Assembly: GCA_031272825.1 (NCBI GenBank) | Contig: JAISTE010000170.1 | Coordinates: forward strand, 1 to 55,621 | Direction: 5' to 3' | DNA length: 55,621 nucleotides | Source of the DNA: Propionibacteriaceae bacterium | GTDB taxonomy: Bacteria > Actinomycetota > Actinomycetes > Propionibacteriales > Propionibacteriaceae | Part shown: positions 2,737-55,621 of the stretch, in pieces | Position numbering within the stretch: the stretch's first letter is position 1 | Layout: every line of letters begins with the position of its first letter | Notes under the pieces: generated by a model | Databases searched by the model: none | Told to the model about the DNA's origin: nothing | Seen by the model: only the letters and a program-made list of their open reading frames with translations | Position numbers and translations under genes: made by a program

Positions 2737-3177
2737 TCAGGATGCCGTGCTCCCCCGCAAGCTCCCGCTCACCCCTTGCAGAACCTTCGCGGCGGCGGCT
2801 AGCTGCTTGGGATCGCCGCACGCATCGGCCAGCAGTTCACCCCAGAATTCCCTTAGCTTGTCCAGGTTCTTTGCCGACGCCGGGAGCGGATAGACCCTAA
2901 TCTTGCGGCCATCACTCTCGTCGGGTTCGCGGGCCAGGAACTCCCGGGCTTCGAGCGCGCGCAGCACCGCCGAGACGTTCGAGCACTTCATGTCGAGAGT
3001 GCGCGCGATGCGGGTGGTCGAGATGCCGGGTTCGGTTTCCACCAGCGACATCACCGAGGCCTCGATGCCGCTGAGCCTGTCGCCGCTGTAGCGCTCGTCG
3101 GTGGCGTGTTTGAGCTGGCGGGACAGCGACAACACCACCTGTGCCAGATCGGCTGCTTGTTTGACGTCGTCCTCCAT
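2737..3177 (-). CDS. MarR-family transcriptional regulator
   Basis: 146 aa wHTH with DGR wing motif; divergent from MFS efflux gene. Confidence 0.88.
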   Translation of the reverse strand: MEDDVKQAADLAQVVLSLSRQLKHATDERYSGDRLSGIEASVMSLVETEPGISTTRIARTLDMKCSNVSAVLRALEAREFLAREPDESDGRKIRVYPLPASAKNLDKLREFWGELLADACGDPKQLAAAAKVLQGVSGSLRGSTAS

Positions 3178-45745: not shown

Positions 45746-45937
45746 CTAGACGTCCAGCACCTGACGCAGAGCGCCGCGCGGGCCGTAGTTGCCGCATTCG
45801 GGGCAGGCGGTGTGCGGCAGCTTCTTGGCGCCGCAGGCCGGGTTCGGGCACGTTACGAGCGCCGGGGCCTGGGTCTTCCACTGCGAACGACGAGCACGGG
45901 TGTTGGAACGGGACATCCTCCGCTTCGGAACAGCCAC
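45746..45937 (-). CDS. rpmF: 50S ribosomal protein L32 (Cys-containing)
   Basis: [23 protein letters not shown]...HTACPECG; AAGGAG RBS before GTG at 45937. Confidence 0.95.
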
Positions 45938-46021
45938 AATCTTCTCCTTGCTAAAAAACCAATCGCCGACGTTCGACGCCGGGCCAAGGGGAGAGTTTAC
46001 CCTTTTCCCCGCAGCTGGGCC

Positions 46022-46069
46022 AAACCAAAGCGAAAGGCCGAACCAAGTATGAGTTGGTTCGGCCTTCGC
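46022..46069 (-). terminator. Intrinsic terminator closing the putative large RNA
   Basis: GCGAAGGCCGAACCAA-CUCAUAC-UUGGUUCGGCCUUUCGC followed by UUUGGUUUG. Confidence 0.8.
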
Positions 46070-46440
46070 CGTCCGGGTTGGATACTCCCGAACCGAGCGG
46101 CCCGCTTCACTCGCCTGGCCATCCTCACCAGGCGGCGCCCGCTTGGCGTTCGCCCCACGGAGCTGCGTTTGCCGCTCTATCCGATCCGCGCCAGCCCTGC
46201 CGGGTCTGGCGACCGCCTTTCGGCGGCGAGCCCTGCATCTCTCGGCACCTATCGGCACCTCGACGCTGGCAGTCACACCCACGCGGGGTGGACAGTTCAG
46301 CAACCTCTCGGCCTGAACAGATTCGGAAAACGGTGGCCCTTCCTTTCGGCTGCGGCCCCGCTGGGTACCTCCCCCTTTCGGGTTCGGCCCCGGTGGTGGG
46401 CTCCCCTTTCGGGTCTCCCCCACTCCGTTTCCGGATCGGC
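46025..46440 (-). ncRNA. Putative large structured non-coding RNA (~410 nt), family not recognised
   Basis: Multiple GNRA-capped hairpins readable on the minus strand, nested long-range helices, upstream TTGCGT-17bp-TAGAAA candidate promoter, terminal terminator. Confidence 0.7.
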
Positions 46441-46515
46441 GTATGGACATTTCTACTCGCGGCTTTGGGAACACGCAAGGGTTTGGGCGAAAGTAATCTT
46501 TGGTAAATTTTGGGA

Positions 46516-46670
46516 CTTTAGTCTTAGGCCCTAGTCAGGCCAGACAAGGGGATTTGGAACTACATCAGTGTAGTTTTCCGAGCTTCCAAATCCTGAGACG
46601 CGAACCGGACCATCTCATACGTGGTCCGGTTGGCAACTATCCAACCGCAGGTTCGCCCCGGTTCGCGGTA
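46516..46670 (+). ncRNA. Putative small structured RNA or thpR leader with alternative hairpins
   Basis: Extended -10 TGGTAAATT at 46501-46509; stems 46550-59/46584-93, 46603-46631 and alternative 46599-608/46658-67. Confidence 0.4.
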
Positions 46671-46713
46671 GCGACACGCGCATGGCGCAAAATCGCGCAC
46701 TAGGATTGCGGCG

Positions 46714-47238
46714 ATGCGAATGTTCATAGGTTTTGGGCTCAGCGAAGAGCTCCACAGCGCGCTGGAGGCCGTGCAGCAGCAGCTCCGGACCCAGGGCGTC
46801 AAGGCGCGCTATGTGGCACAGAACAACCTGCACGTGACGCTGTTGTTCTTAGGAGAGGTGGCCGATCCTGCGGTTCCGGCACAGCTGATTGCCGAGGCGC
46901 TGGCTGATTTCCGCGAACCCGTGGAACTGGCCCTAGATGGTTTCGGCGCCTTCGGTGACCGCTCGGTACATGTAACCATCAGGCAAAACCCAGAGCTATT
47001 GGGCCTCCAGGCGGCGCTGGCCGAGCGCTTCGAGCCGCTGATCGGCGCCGAAAACCGCCGATACCGTCCCCACGTAACGGTTGCCCGGGGCGTCCAAACC
47101 AAGGATGCCTGGGTAGAGGTTCCGGCACGGAAGATGCTTGCCAACGAGGTAACGCTCTTCGAGTCCTCGGTAACGAAGGGCCGAAGGCTCTACAAGCCGA
47201 TCTTCACATACCCGCTAGAGAACCGCCGATTCGGCTGA
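46714..47238 (+). CDS. thpR: RNA 2',3'-cyclic phosphodiesterase (2H family)
   Basis: MRMFIG, two HxT motifs (LHVTL, PHVTV), LFES; likely leaderless after TAGGAT. Confidence 0.9.
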   Translation: MRMFIGFGLSEELHSALEAVQQQLRTQGVKARYVAQNNLHVTLLFLGEVADPAVPAQLIAEALADFREPVELALDGFGAFGDRSVHVTIRQNPELLGLQAALAERFEPLIGAENRRYRPHVTVARGVQTKDAWVEVPARKMLANEVTLFESSVTKGRRLYKPIFTYPLENRRFG

Positions 47239-47278: not shown

Positions 47279-47351
47279 GGGGCATTAGCGCAGTTGGTAG
47301 CGCGTCGCGTTCGCAATGCGAAGGTCAGGGGTTCGAATCCCCTATGCTCCA
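47279..47351 (+). tRNA. tRNA-Ala(CGC)
   Basis: GGGGCAT/ATGCTCC acceptor with G3:U70, D-arm AGCGCAGTTGGTAGCGC, anticodon loop TT-CGC-AA, GGTTCGAATCC; CCA not encoded. Confidence 0.95.
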
Positions 47352-47359
47352 CAAGAAAT

Positions 47360-47424: not shown

Positions 47425-47619
47425 TCACCAGTCGCCGTCGTCGAAGAAGGTTGGGTCATCAGTCCAGTCGTCGTCCTCCACCTTGCAATAGCCGATGAGG
47501 CACGTGCCGAATACGTCAGCGTAGGCACACTTTTGGGCCATGTAGGGGCAGAAGTACCCGCCGAATCCTTTGGGGACGAAATCTCTCGGATCATATCGAG
47601 ACGGATCATATCGAGACAT
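47425..47619 (-). CDS. Small Cys-rich, acidic-tailed hypothetical protein (64 aa)
   Basis: GAGAGG RBS, ATG, four Cys, D/E/W-rich C-terminus, ends just before terminator. Confidence 0.6.
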   Translation of the reverse strand: MSRYDPSRYDPRDFVPKGFGGYFCPYMAQKCAYADVFGTCLIGYCKVEDDDWTDDPTFFDDGDW

Positions 47620-47884: not shown

Positions 47885-50176
47885 CTACACTTTTTCCCAG
47901 TGGGCGAAGACCTTTAGATTCTTTGTCAGTTTGGCCTTCTTCGAGGCCGTGATCTTTGTGCCGCCCTTTTTCGCCGTGTACCAGCCTATAAAGGTATAGC
48001 CGCTGCGGGTGGGGGCGGGCAGAGTTCCGTACTTCGAGCCGTAGTAGACGGACTTGGACTTCTTCGCCACCGTGCCGCCGTTGGCGTCGAATTTTACGGT
48101 CTTCTTGATGCCCTTCCAGTGCGCGTAGAGCGTGCCTACCGTCACCTTCTTTGTGGAAGTCACCTTCTTGCCGCCCGACTTGGCGGTGTACCAGCCGAGG
48201 AACTTGTAGTTTGTTCGCTTCGGCTTGGGCATGGTGATCTTCTTGCCGTAGCGGGTGGGGAAGCTGGATTTCTTCAACTTGTTGCCGCCGTTGACGTTGA
48301 ACGTGAGCTTGTTGGTGACCTTCACCTTGAAGGTGGTCTTCTTCCCTCCCGCGGTGATCTTGATCTTCACTGTGCCCGTCTTCTTCGCCTTGAAGCCGGT
48401 GGCGATGACGATGGGGTTTAGGAAAGAGATGGAGATCTCCCGGCCGGTGTCGTATTTCACCAGGATCCGCCCGTCCTTGTAGTTCGGTTTCGAGCCAACC
48501 AGATAGCTGGATTGGTAGCCGGTTGCCTTGATCGATTTGATGCCCTGCGGGGCGGTGAAGGCTTTGATGTTGAAGTTGCCGTATGAGCCGGACATTCCGT
48601 ATTTCGACACGTAGCTGGCAGAATCGGTCCAGCCGGAAGTGCCCTTGCCGAAGTAGCTCTCGCCTGCGTTCAGCTCGACACCATAGCTGTACGACGCCGA
48701 ACCCGCTTCCACCGGCAGCAAGATGTTCCCGGAGGCCGCGGTAAGCGTGACGACCACAGAAAACTTGGTGCCGCCCTTCAGGATTGTCGGGTCGGGAAGC
48801 TCGATGGTGTGATACCCGGCTAGCTGGAAGTGGCCCGAGATGTGTTTCGTGCCGCCCTTGTTGATAAGCGCGATGTTTCCCGAATCCGGGGCGGAGCCGT
48901 CGATGTTCGTGTACACCTCAATCTTGTAATTCACGTTCGGCTGCGCGGTGACGATCTGCACGGCCTCCAGCTCTTGGTTCTCGGCGTAGTCGGTAGGCAC
49001 CGAGAAGACGTTCGCCATGCGTCCGGTGGAGGACGCCAACGTCCACGAGCTTTGCCAGCCCAGCTTGTCGAGGGAGAAATTGTGGACGAGCCCGTCGGCA
49101 CCGCCGCCGCCGTTGTACGCGATAGTGCCGCCAGCGACATCGAAATACGCACTCTCTTGGATTGAGTGGTCATAGTAAGACAGGTAGAAGTAGCCGTCCT
49201 TGCCCCATCCGTTGCCCCACGAGTTCTTCACGAGGAACGCCCCATCGCCCTTGGGACGTTTGGCGAAGTTGGACGCCGAATAGTTGTCGTCCCAGCCGAC
49301 GATCGCCACCGCATGGTTTGGAGAGTTGTAGTCCGAGTCGTAGTCATAGTAGGCGGCGGTGGAGGCCTTGTAGAAGGTTCCTGTCTCCTCCACGTTGGCG
49401 GGCGCGTGATAGGCGACGTACAGGGTGCCGTAGTCGTAAACCCCGCCTTTGATCGTCTCGATGTTGTCGGCTGACCACTCCCAGTTTCCGCCCGTGTACT
49501 GCCAGGGCGAGGGGAACACGTACATGTTTCGCATGTGGAACAGCGACTTTTCGAGCTGCGTCTCGTACACCGGCCCGGAAGTCGCAGGGTATTCGAGCCG
49601 GGATTCGGCTGTCGTGCCGTACCAGTTAGAAAGGGCGGACGCGGCCATGTACAGGTTTCCGCCTGAGTTCAGCATCTTCTCGTAGGTGTTTCCCTTCGAA
49701 GACGTGGCCTTGAACGTGTTGTTGTCGTACACCGAGTAGACGATGTGTGCGGTGGAGATGGGCTCATTGCGCGTCACCTTGTTGTTGTACAGGCCGGCTT
49801 CCGCCGAGGCCGCCGTCGCAAACGACCAGCAGGTGCCGTACTTCCCTTGGTCGCGCACCGGAGTGACCGACCCCGGCTTGGCCTTGCGCAGGTCGTAGCT
49901 GGACGGCAGCCGCCCTGCCATTACCAGGCCCGGGATGGCCGTGTAGTCGGCCTCGTTGATGACGGCGTGATTGATGCAGTTCTGCCGCATTCCCCAGCCG
50001 AGCTCCTCTTCTTCGGGCTGACAATCGGCGATCGGCATTATCTCTGCCAAAGTGCCGCCCGCTCCAACGCGCACCGGCGTGACGGGTGCAGGGTCCGCCC
50101 CGCCCGCGGATGCCGCAGTCGTCGTTGTCAGTGCCAGAACGAGCGTAAGCGTCGCAGCACACATCCACTGTCTCAT
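47885..50176 (-). CDS. Secreted papain-family (C1A) cysteine peptidase with lectin-like/Ig-like region and two InlB B-repeats
   Basis: Signal peptide, QGKYGTCWSF, NHAVAIVGW, KNSWG; C-terminal F..NGG...P.R.(G/N)Y.F.GWY..LYAHW-type repeats. Confidence 0.88.
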   Translation of the reverse strand: MRQWMCAATLTLVLALTTTTAASAGGADPAPVTPVRVGAGGTLAEIMPIADCQPEEEELGWGMRQNCINHAVINEADYTAIPGLVMAGRLPSSYDLRKAKPGSVTPVRDQGKYGTCWSFATAASAEAGLYNNKVTRNEPISTAHIVYSVYDNNTFKATSSKGNTYEKMLNSGGNLYMAASALSNWYGTTAESRLEYPATSGPVYETQLEKSLFHMRNMYVFPSPWQYTGGNWEWSADNIETIKGGVYDYGTLYVAYHAPANVEETGTFYKASTAAYYDYDSDYNSPNHAVAIVGWDDNYSASNFAKRPKGDGAFLVKNSWGNGWGKDGYFYLSYYDHSIQESAYFDVAGGTIAYNGGGGADGLVHNFSLDKLGWQSSWTLASSTGRMANVFSVPTDYAENQELEAVQIVTAQPNVNYKIEVYTNIDGSAPDSGNIALINKGGTKHISGHFQLAGYHTIELPDPTILKGGTKFSVVVTLTAASGNILLPVEAGSASYSYGVELNAGESYFGKGTSGWTDSASYVSKYGMSGSYGNFNIKAFTAPQGIKSIKATGYQSSYLVGSKPNYKDGRILVKYDTGREISISFLNPIVIATGFKAKKTGTVKIKITAGGKKTTFKVKVTNKLTFNVNGGNKLKKSSFPTRYGKKITMPKPKRTNYKFLGWYTAKSGGKKVTSTKKVTVGTLYAHWKGIKKTVKFDANGGTVAKKSKSVYYGSKYGTLPAPTRSGYTFIGWYTAKKGGTKITASKKAKLTKNLKVFAHWEKV

Positions 50177-50385
50177 CTTCGGTTCCCCCTTGACCGCTTC
50201 CTTGCGCGGATACGAAATACAAACCTGCTTTGCGTCAGCACCCAAGGATATGGGGTAGCTAACGCTCGTTAGGTTACTCTAACGCCGCATTTGTGTTCAT
50301 TTTCATGCTGCTCTTCTTCGATTACCGCCCACCCGCTAGGATTGCGCGCACCAGGGGTAGTGATGCCATATCAAGGGGGACGAAT

Positions 50386-53300
50386 ATGGCCAGGAAATTT
50401 GGGACGCTCATGCTCGCCTTCGCGCTGGCGCTGTCACTCGGCGTGGGCTCGGCCAACGCTCAGACAGACGAGGTTGAGCAGGCTGCTAAGGTCCAGTCAG
50501 GGCAAGATACCGGCTCTGGCAACGCTCAAAGCGCGGAAGACCGAGAAGCTGAGACGGAAGAGCCGGCGAGCGGCGCAGCCGACAGCGAGTCAACCCAAGA
50601 AGCGATAGACGAACCGACCCAGGACGTCGATAAAGAATTCGCCCCGGACAACGCAAAGAAGCCCGGTGAAGCAGCTCAGGACGTCGCCGCTGAGGACGAT
50701 CCAACGCGAGAAGCCGCCGCAGAAGAAGACCCAACCCAAGAACCCGAGTCCACCGAACCCTCCGCGGCACCGAGCGACGAATCCAAGAAAGCCAAGCGCG
50801 TCGGCGCAGCCAGCGATTTCACCATCACACCCGGTTGGGCTGGTGAATCGCTGGCCACCGACACGATCATCACCACCGGTTCGGGCAACGCCAAGACGGT
50901 GAACTTCATGGTGTTCGGCCCCACCGATTGGTCTTCGGTGCCCCATGCGTCGACCAATACCCGCAAGCTCGTCATCGAGTACGAGAAGGTCTCGGATGCC
51001 TACGACGACGGAAAGATGGGCTTTCGCCTTACCGACTACACCGGCAAATCGGGCTCGGGCTCTACATTCGAGAATGCCAAGCTCAAGGGTGTCGAGGGCC
51101 AACCCGACATCATGAAGTCAGTCGCCGAGGCCAACGATCCAGCGCCTAACAACACCACAGGGATGGGCACCAAAGGCCGGATCGTCTACACATTCGTACC
51201 CACCACCCAGTTCGACCTGGCTACGGTACAGCTCAGCTTCCAGGCCGTCTACAACTCGGGAACCATCAACGTCGGCACCGGCGTGGCCGGAAACGACTAT
51301 TCGGCCTATCCCGACGAACAGATCAAGATCACCGCCTACCTCATCCAGGACTCGACGGCCGCCGAGTCCGCAGCTGGCGCAAACTCCCTTGACCCAAACG
51401 CGCCGCTCACCGGCTCGGCCACACTCGTCGAGCAAGGCGAGGCCACCGCCAAGGCTTACTGCCCGGGCCGCGCGGCGCGGATGTACTGGTACGCGCGCCA
51501 ACCATCGGTAGTCGGCCTCGGCCCGACGACCGGAGGACAGCTGTACATGGCCCTCGCAAGCTGGGGTTCCACCACCTACTACGGCATGGAATACCTCAAG
51601 TACACCGTACACATGGATTTGGCGAACACCCGAATACAGCTTGCCGCCAACAACTACATCACCTACAAGCAGCTGCTGCAGGCCAGCTATCCGCTTACGC
51701 TCGGAACCGGAGCCAACACCGTTACCCTCACCTCGCGGCCCATCACCTTCAGGCAGCACGACGGCAGCGCCTTGCTCGATTTGGATGGTGACGGGTTCGC
51801 CACCCAACTGGAGCTCACCGGCACGCACCAAGGCATGTACTCCGCTTACCAGGTTGAGGATCAAAACCAGTGGACGCTGGTCTACGACACTACCGCGGAA
51901 TTTGCCAAGTACAACAACGTGATGCCCCAGATTTCGTTCTACGAGAGCGGCACCTTGGGCATTGAGTTCAGCGTCGACTACCAGTTTTCGCTCAGCGGAC
52001 GCGGGCCGGTGCTGCATTCAAACCCGCAGGTGGCCGTCACCACGCTCAACACCTACAACACCGCTACCGTCGTCGAGGGTATGGACGTGGGCGTGTATAA
52101 CTCGAAGCAAACCGGCGGTAACAACGCCTTCGGTGCGGTGATCGCGGCCACCGAGCTGCAGATCACCGCCTCGGCACCGTTCTACGCGGCCACAAATAAC
52201 CCTGCGCAGCTGACACCCACAACCAACAACTACGATCCCTGGCTGCAGCCGAACTCCACGGCCTTCCAGTCGGCCTACACCTCGAACGCCGTGGGTTCTG
52301 CCGACTATATGGATCAGAAGGGATTCTTGTATTACCAGGCGTTCGAGTCGATTCAGGTGATGACCGCACGAACGGCGGCCGAGGCGGCGGGCGCGAGCGA
52401 TCCGATCACCTTCGAGATTCCCACAGGAACGACGCTCACCCACATCGTGCTGCCGTACAACGGCGGAATGGCGAACTCCACCAACATCTCGCTCTACAAG
52501 TACAAGAACGCCGAGTACAAGGGAGCATCCTTCCCGTTCGACGTGCGTATCAACGACGGCCCGCTGCAATCAGGTTCTGCGGCGACGCCCGTCGCCGCCC
52601 TCGCCGACGCCGACAAGGTAACCAAGGTTGAGCTCGGAACACCGCTCGTCGGACCGGCATCAATCACGTTCTACGTCGACGAGCTGCAGTACATCGGCAA
52701 AGATTCGGGCGATACCGAATCCTCGCTCGGCGGCGCGCGCATAGCATTCATCGGCACAACCACCGGCCTGACGCCCGGCGGAAACGTCACCTTCAAGGTC
52801 AGCTCCACCAAGGGAAATTCGGCAAACCTGGTCGCCGGAATCGCCGAGCACGGGAAGATCGTCCCCAGCATGCTTACCTTCGACGACATCGCACTCGTCA
52901 CCAAGGGCACTACGAATAACGGGTTCTCCACCCAAAGCGGTGCCGCCGGCTGGAACCAGACGTCCGTGGTCGGCGCCGTGCAAAAGGGCACGGAGGTCTA
53001 CGTGCGCACCTACTTCAGACCGCTCGGCACTGAGAACTACGCGTCCTACGCCGGGGCTTCGAAAAATGGCCGGGCATACCGGCCGCCAACGTACGTCGAC
53101 CCGCTGCCGCACACCGACGGAACCGCGAACGTCCTATATGGGGTGACTCCGGTGTTCTACTTCTCCATCCCCTCCGGCCTGGAGATCGACACCTCCGACC
53201 CCGACGCCGTGCAGCTGATGTATGACAAGACCAACCTCACCGGCCTGGACGTGCACGGCAAGAAGCTGAAAGCTTCGATTTCGCACGTCACCGAGTCGGG

Positions 53301-55621
53301 ATACGGCCTGTTCACCGGCGGGCAGAAGGGCGCGAACGCCGACGGCTACATGGTGGAGGTCGACATCACCGACGAGGACGGCAACCCCACGTTGTTCACC
53401 AACGCGCGGCAAAACGGTACGGCGAGCAACACCAACTACATCGTGCTGCTCAAGCTGAAGATCCCAGCCGACTTCGACGAGCTCACCGAGGGCAATAACT
53501 TTGAGTTCGACACTGAATCGGTGTTGACTAACTACCGGCACGAAATCGTACAAAAGCCCTTGTGGAGCCATCCGTCGTACTATCCGGCACCCGTGAACCT
53601 GGCCACGCGCTACACCTTCACCGCGGCCAAGACCTCGACCCCGACCGTCGACAATGTGGTGATGTTCCCCGAGGCTTTGGCGTTCAGCTCGGCGGCGACG
53701 AACGGGCACACCACCTTGCCCGACGCCGACTCGCCCGAGTGGTGGTTCACATCAAGGCCGCAGACGGCCTTCAGCCCAAACCATCTGCTGTTGGTGTTGC
53801 CGCCCTCGGCATCGGGTTCGGCCTCCAGCGAGCGCGAGGCCGGAGGCTATTACAACCACTCGGCCACTGCGTCGGCCAGCGATGTGCCGCCGATTCGGGC
53901 CGTAGACGAGCGGGTTCCACACCTGCGCTATTCGATGTTCTACAACGTCGACGGCATCCCGGCGGCGGCTAACTCGGTGATCTAATTCGTGCTGCCGACG
54001 GGCGAGAACTGGAAGCCGGTGATGACGGGCACGCCCTACATCATGCACACGCCCGGCTGGGAAGACATGGAGATTTGGTACACGACCGATCCGGTTTTAC
54101 CGGATACCTCGGTGCTGAACTCGCTGAACACGGCGACCGGTGAGCTGGTGACGACCACTTCCCTGACGTGGAGCCAGGGGACGCTCACGGCCATCGGTTC
54201 CTCGCGCCTGGACGTCGGCGGAATTTCGGCTGCCAACCTGGCGAATATCACCGCCTGGAAGATCGTCTATAAGACGCTGCCGATCGGAGATCAGATCAAC
54301 TTCTACATGCCATACCGCGTTGACAAGGTTGATTACCGCAAGCTTTCGGCCCCTGATTGCACCTCGAACTGCTACGGCGATGTGGAGGTCGGCGACATCT
54401 ACTACTGGTTCGGCCCGAACTCGAACCAGATTAAGAACCACCAGATGGGTTCGGCCGTGCGGCTGCTGCGCTCGGCGGTACCGGAAATCCGCGAGTTCGA
54501 CGCAAGCGCGCTGCCCACCGCCACGCAGTCCTATGCGTACGGGGCAAGCGGGCTCGCCGATTGGTGGAAGCTCACCACCTTCGACGACTACACGGCGGGC
54601 ATCTCGGCGGCTTCGATCAAGGTTGAGAAGACGCCTTGGGGCGACGGCACTTCGAGCGTCATCTTGTCGTCGAGTGATTTCATATCCGACGGCACCTATT
54701 CGCCCGCCACCGGGGCCGACGGGGTGAAGGGCCACTTCAACATCACGCCCACCGACTACATCTCCACTACATCACCGGGCACCTATACCATCACGTACAC
54801 GACCACGACCGACGGCGACACCCAAGGCACGACGGCCACGCGCACGATCTTCGTCGACAAGCCCATCTACACGGTCACGTACCACGCCGACGGCTCGACC
54901 TCGGGAGCGGCTCCTGCCGATGCGGCGGGCAACGCGCCGACGGGCGCCGTGGTCGGCAACAAGTACTACGACGGCTCAACAGTTACGACGCTGGGCGCGG
55001 GAACTCTTGCCAAGGATCACCACTTCTTCGCGGGCTGGGCCACGTCCTCGGGATCGACGACCGTGGCTTACGCGGCTGCGGCGACGTTCACGATCTCGGC
55101 GAACGTCGATCTCTATCCGGTGTTCTACCCCAACGTTCTTTCCGTTTCGTACAAGGTGAACTCGCCCGTCGGCGCGCAGGCGGACTTCACCCCGGCCAAT
55201 GCGGTCTCCGGAACTCCGGCCTATAACACGACGGGCGCGGATCGGTGGGTTTACGGGTTGGCGAAAGTCGGGCCGTCGGACATTCCAACTGCGCCGCACG
55301 ATTCGGCCGGGAATTTCGACTACGACTTCGTGGGCTGGTTCGCCTCCGAGGCAGACGCCGACGCAATCACAAGCTCGGGCGTGGTCGGGAGCGCCGTACC
55401 GTTCTCGTTCACTGGCAACTACGCCGACGACCTGAGCACGCTCACGCTCTACGCTGCCTGGGTCGAACCATACGGAATCAGCTACGACCTGGGCGGGGCC
55501 AGCGCAAACAACGCACACACCCCGGCAAGGTTCACGCGCAACTGGGTGAACGGTACGAGTGCTATTCGCATCTACAATCCGCCCGCCCGCACCGGCTACA
55601 CCTTCACCGGCTGGACGGCCG
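50386..55621 (+). pseudogene. Giant secreted/surface protein with InlB B-repeats, interrupted by an in-frame TAA at 53983-53985; runs off the window
   Basis: Signal peptide and acidic linker; same frame stays open 545 codons past the TAA and contains F.GW / LYAAW / P.RTGYTFTGW repeats. Confidence 0.75.

What the first reader, a model, noticed from the sequence alone, without database searches (positions are those of the whole stretch)
46025..46480. Unrecognised ~410-nt ornate structured RNA upstream of rpmF
Seen (minus strand): 5' CCGAUCCG (46439-32) pairs with CGGAUCGG (46188-81), enclosing ~250 nt. GGAAACGG pairs with CCGUUUUCC (46333-25) and closes a junction of three similar arms, each with a purine-rich internal loop and a CC(C)-GAAA-GG(G) cap. 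Further helices: GUUCAG/CUGAAC with a GAGA loop, CACCC/GGGUG, and CUGCC/GGCAG enclosing CCGCC-GAAA-GGCGG. A second domain is closed by GAGCGGC/GCCGCUC and contains CGCCUGG/CCAGGCG, followed by a terminator. rpmF has its own -10 candidate (TAAACT), so the RNA looks like an independent transcript. It lacks RNase P, tmRNA, SRP and group II intron hallmarks. Inference: a candidate new large ncRNA class, such as a ribozyme or a multimerising scaffold in the spirit of OLE/ROOL/GOLLD/raiA.
Basis: partly seen in the sequence, partly recalled or inferred. Interest (0 to 1): 0.9.

Follow-up and report, generated by a model that had tools for sequence, protein, structure and literature searches.

The report
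New actinomycete RNA with kissing partner
This is a folded, non-protein-coding RNA gene of about 410 letters from a family that matches nothing in Rfam, recurs across many actinomycete bacteria and ends in an almost unchanging seven-letter loop, and a tiny neighbouring gene is predicted to make an RNA that would pair with that loop and likely switch it off.

Summary
Real and apparently undescribed. Window 46442-46025 (-) is a long member of an RNA family with no Rfam match. Homologues were found across Propionibacteriaceae, the order, and 40 of 150 Actinomycetia genomes (E<=1e-4), and in none of 140 genomes of other classes. Typical length is about 200 nt (about 90-650). Shared parts: a TTGCG-17-TAGAA promoter, a variable GNRA-arm 5' domain, a covarying core with a kissing-loop pseudoknot, and a 3' hairpin whose CUCAUAC loop hardly varies. 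That hairpin is more than a terminator. Contigs of seven RNA runs lie inside a homologue's predicted transcript. The rpmF link is incidental (0 of 29 other rpmF loci). In other families this promoter lies antisense to the large RNA's own 3' hairpin. Best reading: an abundant trans-acting RNA whose Met-anticodon-like loop binds a conserved ligand and is masked by a WhiA/B-driven kissing partner. Ligand and function are inferred, not shown.

The parts
46025..46442 (-). Large non-coding RNA, about 410-418 nt; predicted +1 at the A of ACGCC (46442), 3' end after the last hairpin and U-rich tail
   Evidence: Fold z -5.19; model hits 46025-46195 E 2.3e-15, single copy in G000; 5' ACGC aligned in homologues; ends in this window not mapped
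46473..46478 (-). -35 element TTGCGT of the large RNA's promoter
   Evidence: TTGCGN with a 17-18 nt spacer in 28 of 28 homologues with this promoter listed; TTGACA/TTGACG in L089, L092
46449..46455 (-). -10-like element TAGAAA(T) of the large RNA's promoter
   Evidence: TA(G/C)AA(A/C) in all promoters listed; same motif in other families
46181..46439 (-). Variable 5' domain: closing helix CCGAUCCG/CGGAUCGG, a three-arm GNRA subdomain (46325-46432) and four further hairpins; one arm in most homologues, three or more in some
   Evidence: z -5.10; arms are direct repeats; arm number varies; no covariation data for the extra helices
46095..46177 (-). Core stalk and junction: GAGCGGC (46177-71) / GCCGCUC (46101-095), GCUC/GAGU helix, and hairpin CGCCUGG/CCAGGCG (46134-46112)
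   Evidence: Covariation on 40 sequences: helices 67-97% paired, most pairs with two-sided changes
46080..46124 (-). Kissing-loop pseudoknot: GGAUG (46124-20) with UAUCC (46084-80), the latter in the loop of hairpin 46093-46071
   Evidence: 94% of cells paired, 4 of 5 pairs with two-sided changes; 51 of 72 testable RNAs have a 5 bp or longer loop-loop match against a shuffle mean of 12
46033..46067 (-). 3' hairpin, 14 bp stem, loop CUCAUAC (46053-47): the family's signature
   Evidence: 219 of 225 distinct hairpins have CTCATAC, the rest YYCATAY, while stems change (the search expression itself required YYCATAY)
46601..46633 (-). Predicted small partner RNA (about 35-45 nt): hairpin ACCGGACCAC-GUAUGAG-AUGGUCCGGU; loop 46620-14 is the exact complement of the large RNA's 3' loop
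   Evidence: Inverted repeat with 46038-62; linked upstream in 63 of 68 full-length loci; G-U versus A-C asymmetry 51:12 favours this strand; transcript not observed
46639..46644 (-). -10-like site TTGGAT of the small gene (TAGACA/TAGAAA/TTGAAT in homologues; weak in this genome)
   Evidence: Aligned position
46673..46679 (-). WhiA-type box GCGTGTC (GACACGC on +) at a fixed distance from the small hairpin
   Evidence: GACAC at +49..+55 after the loop in 91 of 225 hairpins; motif GACACGCC reported for WhiA/WhiB2 in PMC13473873 (passages)
46558..46575 (.). Palindrome AACTAC-N6-GTAGTT between the two genes; candidate operator for an unidentified regulator
   Evidence: Also upstream of the promoter in L173, L269, L272, L273, L274
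45746..45937 (-). rpmF (L32): neighbour, not part of the system
   Evidence: PF01783; no RNA hit at 29 other rpmF loci
46714..47238 (+). LigT-like 2',3'-cyclic phosphodiesterase gene: neighbour, not conserved beside the RNA
   Evidence: PF13563/PF02834; not among the neighbours annotated

Best explanation
This is a stand-alone, non-coding RNA with a covarying pseudoknotted core and an almost invariant 3' loop, CUCAUAC, which likely acts in trans as a stable decoy or regulator through that loop and is likely masked when a small RNA from a predicted WhiA/WhiB-driven promoter would pair its GUAUGAG loop with it. Shown: the family, its fold, its own conserved promoter, the lack of fixed neighbours, RNA-library contigs inside a homologue, and the fixed geometry of the complementary gene. 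Inferred: that the small RNA is made, that the two loops form a 7-bp kiss, that WhiA/WhiB (and DnaA in other families) time the two promoters with the cell cycle, and that the loop has a third, conserved ligand. My first guess for that ligand is something that reads a methionine anticodon loop or an AUG codon, because the loop matches six of seven positions of this genome's tRNA-Met loops. The variable 5' domain would be a stabilising or multivalent scaffold, not the active site.
For: Covariation: 41 of 51 pairs change on both sides, against 25.0 in shuffles and at most 27 in slid controls. Loop constant while stems differ. Neighbours differ between loci; 2-3 copies each with a promoter in several genomes. 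Seven RNA-labelled runs of seven studies give contigs inside the predicted transcript of a homologue, while a run with even depth spans the whole stretch. Partner gene: 63 of 68 full-length loci, all 63 with GTGTC; inverted as a unit in L159 and L165; unlinked but present in G017, G024, G031; overlapping the large RNA's own hairpin in 22 of 148 large-RNA loci; pattern in 25 of 151 class genomes against 1 control match. G-U/A-C asymmetry puts the two hairpins on complementary strands, 22:7 versus 12:51. Stems drift apart (18-19 of 31 identical in L271, L273) while loops stay complementary; both stems changed together in L165 and L298. tRNA-Met loops of G000 are CTCATAA. DnaA-box-like repeats: 2 or more upstream in 33 of 40 class/order loci against 2 of 40 downstream.
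Against: The small RNA was not seen in any run (it is too short for these contigs, so this is untested rather than refuted). No expression data exist for this window's own copy. The partner pattern was found in only 2 of 33 genomes of g2 (one a real hairpin) and 0 of 24 of g6, where 24 and 10 carry the large RNA, and in only 22 of the 48 other class genomes with a model hit, so the partner is not obligatory; the pattern is narrow and misses this genus by design. In this window a full duplex (-38.0 kcal/mol) is weaker than the two separate hairpins (-21.1 and -22.2), so only a loop kiss is plausible. Position 7 of the loop is C where tRNA-Met has A, and the three G-C pairs of initiator tRNA are absent. 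No mRNA or rRNA target emerged. This window has no DnaA-like or GACACGC box just upstream of the large promoter; DnaA-like boxes are rare in the family set (7 of 104), and my DnaA expression was partly shaped by the loci. Related genomes are not independent.
Confidence: 0.5

Rival explanations
1. It is a functional analogue of Ms1/6S RNA: an abundant RNA that binds and stores RNA polymerase, with the small RNA controlling its turnover.
For: Size, a sigma-A-like promoter, free-standing locus and presence in RNA libraries fit. No Ms1 or 6S match in G000. PMC9130861 (passages and section 22) lists no Ms1 for Propionicimonas or Micropruina.
Against: No Ms1 (RF02566) or 6S match at these loci; no HAD-IB hydrolase neighbour among those annotated; a branched, pseudoknotted core rather than a long hairpin with a central bubble; it does not explain the invariant 3' loop.
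Confidence: 0.17
2. The small GUAUGAG hairpin is the effector (an RNA toxin or brake that binds the CUCAUAA anticodon loop of tRNA-Met), and the large RNA is the decoy that soaks it up.
For: Six of seven loop positions would pair with G000 tRNA-Met loops. The large RNA is amplified to 2-3 copies while one antisense promoter is kept per array. In genus g1, genomes first seen with the small hairpin alone also hold a large-type hairpin elsewhere.
Against: The large RNA is kept with an unchanged loop where no partner is detected (g2, g6). A perfect match to tRNA-Met would start with U, not the conserved G.
Confidence: 0.12
3. It is a base-pairing sRNA that represses a set of mRNAs at GU-AUG-AG start regions, in the manner of Caulobacter CcnA, which acts on cell-cycle mRNAs through a hairpin loop.
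For: The loop is complementary to a start codon and begins with a YUNR U-turn motif (motif recalled, no call); 18 candidate ORFs in G000 start within GTATGAG; CcnA uses a loop on ctrA and gcrA mRNAs (PMC8959179, passages).
Against: By eye none of the 18 ORFs is dnaA, whiA, whiB or ftsZ, and conservation of these sites was not tested; a large pseudoknotted body is more than such sRNAs need.
Confidence: 0.1
4. It is a ribozyme or a self-assembling scaffold like OLE, ROOL or GOLLD; the kissing loops join copies together.
For: Many GNRA-capped arms that increase with length, a conserved loop-loop pairing that could be intermolecular, and tandem copies. Kissing loops and A-minor contacts build those cages (PMC12286853, passages).
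Against: The 5' domain ranges from almost nothing to hundreds of bases; the core sequence is poorly conserved between families, unlike a catalytic centre; no Rfam ribozyme match; no convincing phage copy.
Confidence: 0.07
5. The two palindromes act as DNA: recombinase or protein-binding sites with a 7-bp core flanking an invertible segment, and the structure between them is incidental.
For: Two inverted palindromes with the same asymmetric 7-bp core resemble recombination sites.
Against: No flipped arrangement among the 63 linked loci listed; arm sequences change freely between genera; wobble pairs are strand-specific; the sites can be unlinked or a single shared hairpin; no recombinase among annotated neighbours; RNA contigs cover the segment.
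Confidence: 0.02

Closest known systems
raiA motif RNA / ModT (RF03072)
   Same: About 200-250 nt, pseudoknotted, variable stems, found in Actinomycetota, abundant (PMC11706538, abstract and passages).
   Different: No match here or in G000; G213 has a true raiA RNA at another locus than its three copies of this RNA; this family has no fixed neighbour gene and has a complementary partner gene.
Ms1 RNA (RF02566) and 6S RNA (RF00013)
   Same: Free-standing 200-300 nt RNA of actinobacteria with a strong-looking promoter.
   Different: No model match; lacks the HAD-IB hydrolase synteny that defines Ms1 candidates (PMC9130861); different fold; invariant 3' loop.
OLE, ROOL and GOLLD RNAs
   Same: Large, multi-helix RNAs with kissing loops and covariation (PMC12286853, passages).
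   Different: No Rfam match; usually much shorter; chromosomal, with no convincing phage or plasmid copy; multimer formation untested.
CcnA of Caulobacter crescentus
   Same: A 182-nt RNA under a cell-cycle regulator that acts through a hairpin loop (PMC8959179, passages).
   Different: Unrelated sequence and phylum; the antisense in the passages read was an engineered construct; targets of this RNA are unknown.
Kissing-loop antisense pairs (ColE1 RNA I/RNA II, CopA/CopT, sRNA sponges; recalled, no call)
   Same: Two hairpins with complementary 7-nt loops, one with a YUNR motif, encoded in cis-antisense or as a duplicated gene.
   Different: Chromosomal; no replicon, toxin ORF or mRNA attached; the target is itself a large structured non-coding RNA.
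tRNA-Met anticodon stem-loop
   Same: Loop CUCAUAC against CUCAUAA in both CAU tRNAs found in G000.
   Different: No cloverleaf, acceptor stem or CCA; 14-bp stem; no three G-C pairs of initiator tRNA; ARAGORN calls no tRNA here.

Membership tests
Any Rfam 15 family | Covariance-model score at or above the gathering threshold | tested here: not met
   No match over the RNA even at E<=10; 12 divergent homologue loci gave only a tRNA and three sub-threshold scraps
RNase P RNA (RF00010) | Model match; one copy per genome | tested here: not met
   G000 has its RNase P on contig C166
tmRNA | tRNA-like ends and tag peptide | tested here: not met
   One tmRNA elsewhere in G000; none in the window
SRP RNA (RF00169) | Model match | tested here: not met
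   None found in G000 (probably unassembled); 4 of 4 relatives carry SRP RNA at other loci
Ms1 RNA | RF02566 match | tested here: not met
   0 matches in G000 at E<=1
Ms1 RNA | HAD-IB hydrolase / oxidoreductase synteny | tested here: not met
   Neighbours scanned are unrelated and variable
Ms1 RNA / 6S RNA | Binds RNA polymerase core or holoenzyme | not testable with these tools
   Needs immunoprecipitation or binding assay
6S RNA (RF00013) | Model match, long hairpin with central bubble | tested here: not met
   0 of 5 carrier genomes; branched pseudoknotted fold
raiA motif / ModT (RF03072) | Model match | tested here: not met
   None in G000; the one true hit (G213) is at a different locus
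OLE / ROOL / GOLLD | Model match; phage or tRNA-island context (ROOL, GOLLD) | tested here: not met
   4 of 35 viral pattern hits were hairpins, none with this promoter; no phage match
OLE / ROOL / GOLLD | RNA-only homo-multimer | not testable with these tools
   Needs mass photometry or cryo-EM
Riboswitch or ribosomal-protein leader | Fixed position 5' of a consistent gene class | tested here: not met
   0 of 29 other rpmF loci carry it; downstream genes vary in kind and direction
Self-cleaving ribozymes, group I/II introns | Model match to a known catalytic core | tested here: not met
   catalysis itself could not be tested
Kissing-loop antisense pair | Two hairpins with complementary loops, each behind its own promoter | tested here: met
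   (sequence level only)
Kissing-loop antisense pair | Both RNAs are made and bind each other | tested here: inconclusive
   Large RNA covered by RNA contigs in a homologue; small RNA not covered and too short to assemble
Type I toxin-antitoxin | Conserved small toxin ORF on the long RNA | tested here: not met
   No shared start or frame is visible in alignments A1 and A2; the 242-aa frame in this window starts upstream of the predicted +1 and has no codon bias (0.66/0.62/0.65)
WhiA/WhiB regulon | GACAC(GCC) box near the -35 region, either orientation | tested here: met
   Fixed-position box; motif and orientation rule from PMC13473873 and PMC10243135 (passages); binding not tested

The most novel reading that the evidence does not exclude
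A class-wide, previously unseen two-RNA switch of actinomycetes: a large ornate RNA displays a tRNA-Met-anticodon-mimicking loop that engages the translation-initiation or Met-tRNA machinery, and a WhiA/WhiB-driven mini-RNA carrying an AUG loop decodes and silences it, coupling protein synthesis to DNA replication and cell division.
Probability: 0.15. Interest if true: 0.97.

Novelty: categorically new. Interest (0 to 1): 0.86.

Why it matters
Large structured bacterial RNAs are rare, and most that are known turned out to do something central. This family occurs in about a quarter of a genus-balanced draw of Actinomycetia genomes (40 of 150) but was not found in several large-genome families of the draw (f7, f33, f51), which I take from genome size alone to be the usual model actinomycetes; that may be why it was missed. 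It comes with a built-in handle for experiments: one seven-base loop, one complementary mini-gene, and promoter boxes that match WhiA/WhiB and, in other families, DnaA. If the pairing is real it is a natural RNA-RNA switch linked to the actinobacterial cell cycle; if the loop is an anticodon mimic it is a new way to control translation. The window's 410-nt copy shows how the family grows by adding GNRA arms and is a good structural target.

Tried and rejected
Rfam scans of the window and 12 homologue loci: nothing. Specific families RNase P, SRP, Ms1, 6S, raiA: elsewhere or absent. rpmF leader: rejected. The 242-aa frame running into rpmF: no codon bias, starts before the predicted +1. Phage or plasmid element: no plasmid match with one homologue, no phage match with another; viral pattern scans gave 1 and 35 hits, of which 4 were hairpins with no family promoter. 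Pattern hits in non-actinomycete records (L067, L107, L111) and L137 were chance matches without the fold. Model hits with E between 1e-4 and 1e-2 are often false: L174, L175, L177, L285 and L316-L320 have no family hairpin, so the tallies 36 of 151, 57 of 151 and 49 of 151 are upper bounds and I count E<=1e-4. 16S rRNA as target of the small loop: CTCATA occurs in 3 of 3 carrier 16S genes, but of 75 class genomes with a 16S marker 32 have the exact motif, only 11 of these are solid carriers, and 5 carriers lack it; not supported. mRNA start-codon targets: 18 candidate ORFs in G000, no obvious cell-cycle gene, conservation untested. Invertible DNA switch: no flipped locus seen. A close relative sharing the long 5' domain: one metagenome hit, a 200-nt form. 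A stand-alone partner in g2/g6 by a loose pattern: matches near chance level, uninformative. The automated pseudoknot test picked the wrong loop for this window (score 3) and could test only 72 of 148 RNAs. No cover of the small gene in any RNA run: untestable at that length. Literature: ten full-text searches found no description of this RNA; only open-access PMC and bioRxiv are searched, no supplements were read, and motif tables in supplements of RNA-discovery papers could hold it. Three look-ups of earlier findings returned nothing.
Full report
Observation. It folds far better than shuffles: z = -5.19 for the whole, -5.10 for the 5' 262 nt, against -3.72 for the opposite strand. Rfam gives no match over it even at E<=10. 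It lies between a LigT-like phosphodiesterase gene (46714-47238, +) and rpmF-rnc. RNase P RNA and tmRNA lie elsewhere in the genome, and the RNA is single-copy in G000.

Homologues. A DNA search of 60 relatives matched rpmF and, separately, two short pieces of the query: its last hairpin and a stretch about 560 nt upstream. I fetched 31 of these places. They hold an RNA of about 200 nt behind a promoter TTGCGN-17-TA(G/C)AA(A/C), starting ACGC and ending in the same hairpin. Their neighbours are AHSA1, LacI, MsrA, Mrp, Na/Ca exchanger and DNA glycosylase genes, and none of 29 other rpmF loci carries the RNA; relatives have what looks like the end of a yceD-type gene before rpmF (by eye). So the position next to rpmF is particular to this genome. 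A pattern scan of named genomes gave 74 loci, mostly titled Propionicimonas, Micropruina, Propioniciclava or Propionibacteriaceae; with one viral hit that makes 75, of which 68 are full-length members, 2 are cut by contig ends, 1 holds only the small hairpin and 4 are chance.

Structure. On 40 non-redundant core sequences I set a structure from the alignment and counted pairs: 89.2% of cells pair (shuffles 81.6), 41 of 51 pairs have two-sided changes (shuffles 25.0; slid controls 15-27), 0 of 500 shuffles reach any measure. The structure was chosen on this alignment and the sequences are related, so the controls overstate; two helices are weak (67% and 69% paired). The core is a stalk leading to a junction with two hairpins, then a further hairpin, then the 3' hairpin. 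The loop of the second junction hairpin pairs with the loop of the next hairpin (window GGAUG 46124-20 with UAUCC 46084-80; 94% paired, 4 of 5 pairs compensatory). An independent loop-loop test gave 51 of 72 testable RNAs with 5 or more pairs against a shuffle mean of 12, maximum 16; 76 of 148 were not testable and the window itself was mis-scored because the wrong loop was picked. The 5' domain is variable: one GNRA arm in most, three in L081, L091 and L133, many in L072; GNRA hairpins rise with length. The window's extra 5' helices have no close homologue and rest on energy alone.

Range. A core model hit 36 of 151 family genomes at E<=0.01. A shorter model of the last two hairpins hit 57 of 151 family genomes, 47 of 121 order genomes at E<=1e-4 and 49 of 151 class genomes at E<=0.01, of which 40 of the 150 others reach E<=1e-4. 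Weak hits are often false, so I count only E<=1e-4. All 19 best class loci have a fully paired CTCATAC hairpin and 18 have the promoter. In a phylum draw only G000 matched: 0 of 140 genomes of other classes and 0 of 10 of the own class. Lengths run from about 90 to 650 nt, 131 of 148 between 100 and 299. Several genomes have two or three copies, each with a promoter. Neighbours again show no pattern (68 ORFs scanned of 111 listed). No convincing plasmid or phage copy was found.

The invariant loop. Of 225 distinct hairpins 219 have CTCATAC, 4 CCCATAC, 1 TTCATAC and 1 TCCATAT, while the stems differ widely. My expression required YYCATAY, so invariance is partly built in; in the model alignment CATA was the only invariant block in 39 of 39, and a looser NNCATAN scan of 20 further loci found only CTCATAC. 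Both CAU tRNAs found in G000 have the loop CTCATAA. The last hairpin is therefore the family's signature and not only a terminator.

A second gene. At 46601-46633 the window holds an inverted copy of that hairpin, reading GUAUGAG in the loop on the RNA's strand. It is preceded by a -10-like site and, 25 nt further up, by GCGTGTC. The same unit lies upstream in 63 of 68 full-length loci, all 63 with GTGTC. It is inverted as a whole in L159 and L165 and unlinked in G017, G024 and G031. Read from the CTCATAC strand, GACAC sits 49-55 nt after the loop in 91 of 225 hairpins. In 22 of 148 large-RNA loci this promoter faces into the large RNA's own 3' hairpin, so the partner would be a cis-antisense transcript; in tandem arrays one copy has it. 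Wobble pairs tell the strands apart: large-only hairpins have 22 G-U against 7 A-C on the CUCAUAC strand, stand-alone small genes 12 against 51. Stems of the two hairpins can drift (18-19 of 31 identical in L271 and L273) while the loops stay complementary, and they changed together in L165 and L298. In this window a full duplex (-38.0) is weaker than the two hairpins apart (-21.1, -22.2), which points to a loop kiss. A narrow pattern for the small gene matched 25 of 151 class genomes against 1 control match, 22 of them among the 48 others with a model hit; most of these are the same hairpin, so this is not independent support. Against a universal partner: it matched only 2 of 33 g2 genomes and 0 of 24 g6 genomes, of which 24 and 10 carry the large RNA. 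Because the loop is kept where the partner is automatic (cis) or undetected, it probably has a third ligand (inference).

Regulation. GACACGCC is the reported WhiA/WhiB2 motif of M. tuberculosis (PMC13473873, passages), and WhiA boxes occur in either orientation near the -35 region (PMC10243135, passages). DnaA-box-like repeats (consensus recalled) occur twice or more within 200 nt upstream of the large promoter in 33 of 40 class/order loci against 2 of 40 downstream controls, but in only 7 of 104 family loci; GACACGC lies upstream of the large promoter in 31 of 104 family and 7 of 40 class/order loci. This window has neither upstream of the large promoter, but has a palindrome AACTAC-N6-GTAGTT shared with five other loci. 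No binding was tested.

Expression. I could search runs once and used homologue L134, not the window. Eleven RNA-labelled runs hold part of it. In four runs of four studies the contigs cover only 1341-1503, inside the predicted transcript (+1 at 1332, loop at 1507-1513), with nothing on the flanks but one 30-nt scrap. In three more runs of three further studies, exact contigs lie at 3112-3271 of L033 (+1 at 3109), one with adapter sequence directly before 3112, while a run of unrecorded kind covers the 3.5-kb stretch evenly; the RNA runs also have short, imperfect pieces from other organisms on the flanks. These runs were chosen for holding the stretch, and contigs show neither strand nor level, so this is a hint of a discrete transcript, repeated seven times. 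The small gene was not covered; it is too short to assemble.

Mechanism. Best reading (0.5): a trans-acting, stable RNA whose working end is the 3' loop, masked by a WhiA/B-driven mini-RNA through a 7-bp kiss; the ligand is most likely something that reads a Met anticodon loop or AUG. Shown are the family, fold, promoter, lack of synteny, partner geometry and homologue RNA contigs; inferred are the small transcript, the pairing, the regulators and the ligand. Rivals: RNA polymerase binder like Ms1/6S (0.17), small RNA as effector with the large RNA as decoy (0.12), mRNA start-codon sRNA like CcnA (0.10; PMC8959179, passages), ribozyme or cage (0.07; PMC12286853, passages), DNA recombination sites (0.02). 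Searches for an rRNA or mRNA target gave no support.

Known families and novelty. Membership fails for every family tested: RNase P, tmRNA, SRP, Ms1, 6S, raiA/ModT and all Rfam models. PMC9130861 (passages and section 22) defines Ms1 candidates by HAD-IB hydrolase synteny, absent here. PMC11706538 (abstract and passages) describes raiA/ModT; a carrier genome has that RNA at a separate locus. Ten full-text searches of open-access papers found no account of this RNA; subscription papers and supplements were not seen and could list it as an unnamed motif. I put the chance that it is a real RNA family at about 0.95 and that it is undescribed at about 0.85. It works like a kissing-loop antisense pair, but the family and the pairing of a large ornate RNA with a WhiA-box mini-gene match nothing I could find, so I file it as categorically new, with interest 0.86.

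Noticed in passing
window 46558-46575; L173, L269, L272, L273, L274: Palindrome AACTAC-N6-GTAGTT upstream of the large RNA's promoter in six loci; candidate operator of an unidentified regulator.
   Followed up: partly
window 45937-46030: rpmF has lost the yceD-like gene that precedes it in most relatives; TAAACT at about 45999-45994 may be a replacement promoter. L010 also lacks it.
   Followed up: partly
L031-L060, 60-110 nt upstream of the -35: Direct repeats TGGGAC/TGTGAC/TGAGAC about 10-11 nt apart upstream of the large promoter in many genus members; possibly degenerate DnaA boxes or a response-regulator site.
   Followed up: no
L171, L266, L267, L268, L269, L312: A second, divergent subtype of the large RNA (loop closed by GAGA/GTGA) occurs in genus g1, often as two copies facing each other a few kb apart.
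   Followed up: partly
L173, L274 (570-650 nt); L163, L172 (about 480 nt); L072 (about 430 nt); L275 (about 90 nt): Extreme size variants of the family; the longest are very ornate, the shortest is little more than two hairpins plus the signature hairpin.
   Followed up: no
L172:891-2240: In genus g45 the RNA lies divergent from a DNA polymerase III beta-subunit (dnaN) gene.
   Followed up: no
G000: No small SRP RNA match and no 16S marker in the assembly; only two CAU tRNAs found: the assembly lacks some stable RNA genes.
   Followed up: no
window 47885-50245 (-) and 50293-53985 (+): Two long secreted-looking ORFs: one resembles a papain-like cysteine protease with repeat modules, the other a large surface protein (by eye, not scanned).
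   Followed up: no
window 47279-47352 (+) and 47425-47619 (-): tRNA-Ala(CGC) followed by a 64-aa acidic ORF with no Pfam match.
   Followed up: no
G213:C1:3155697-3155978: A genuine raiA motif RNA in a genome that also has three tandem copies of this RNA.
   Followed up: no
L072: A record titled Bifidobacteriaceae holds a long member with the partner gene; either a mislabelled bin or a transfer.
   Followed up: no
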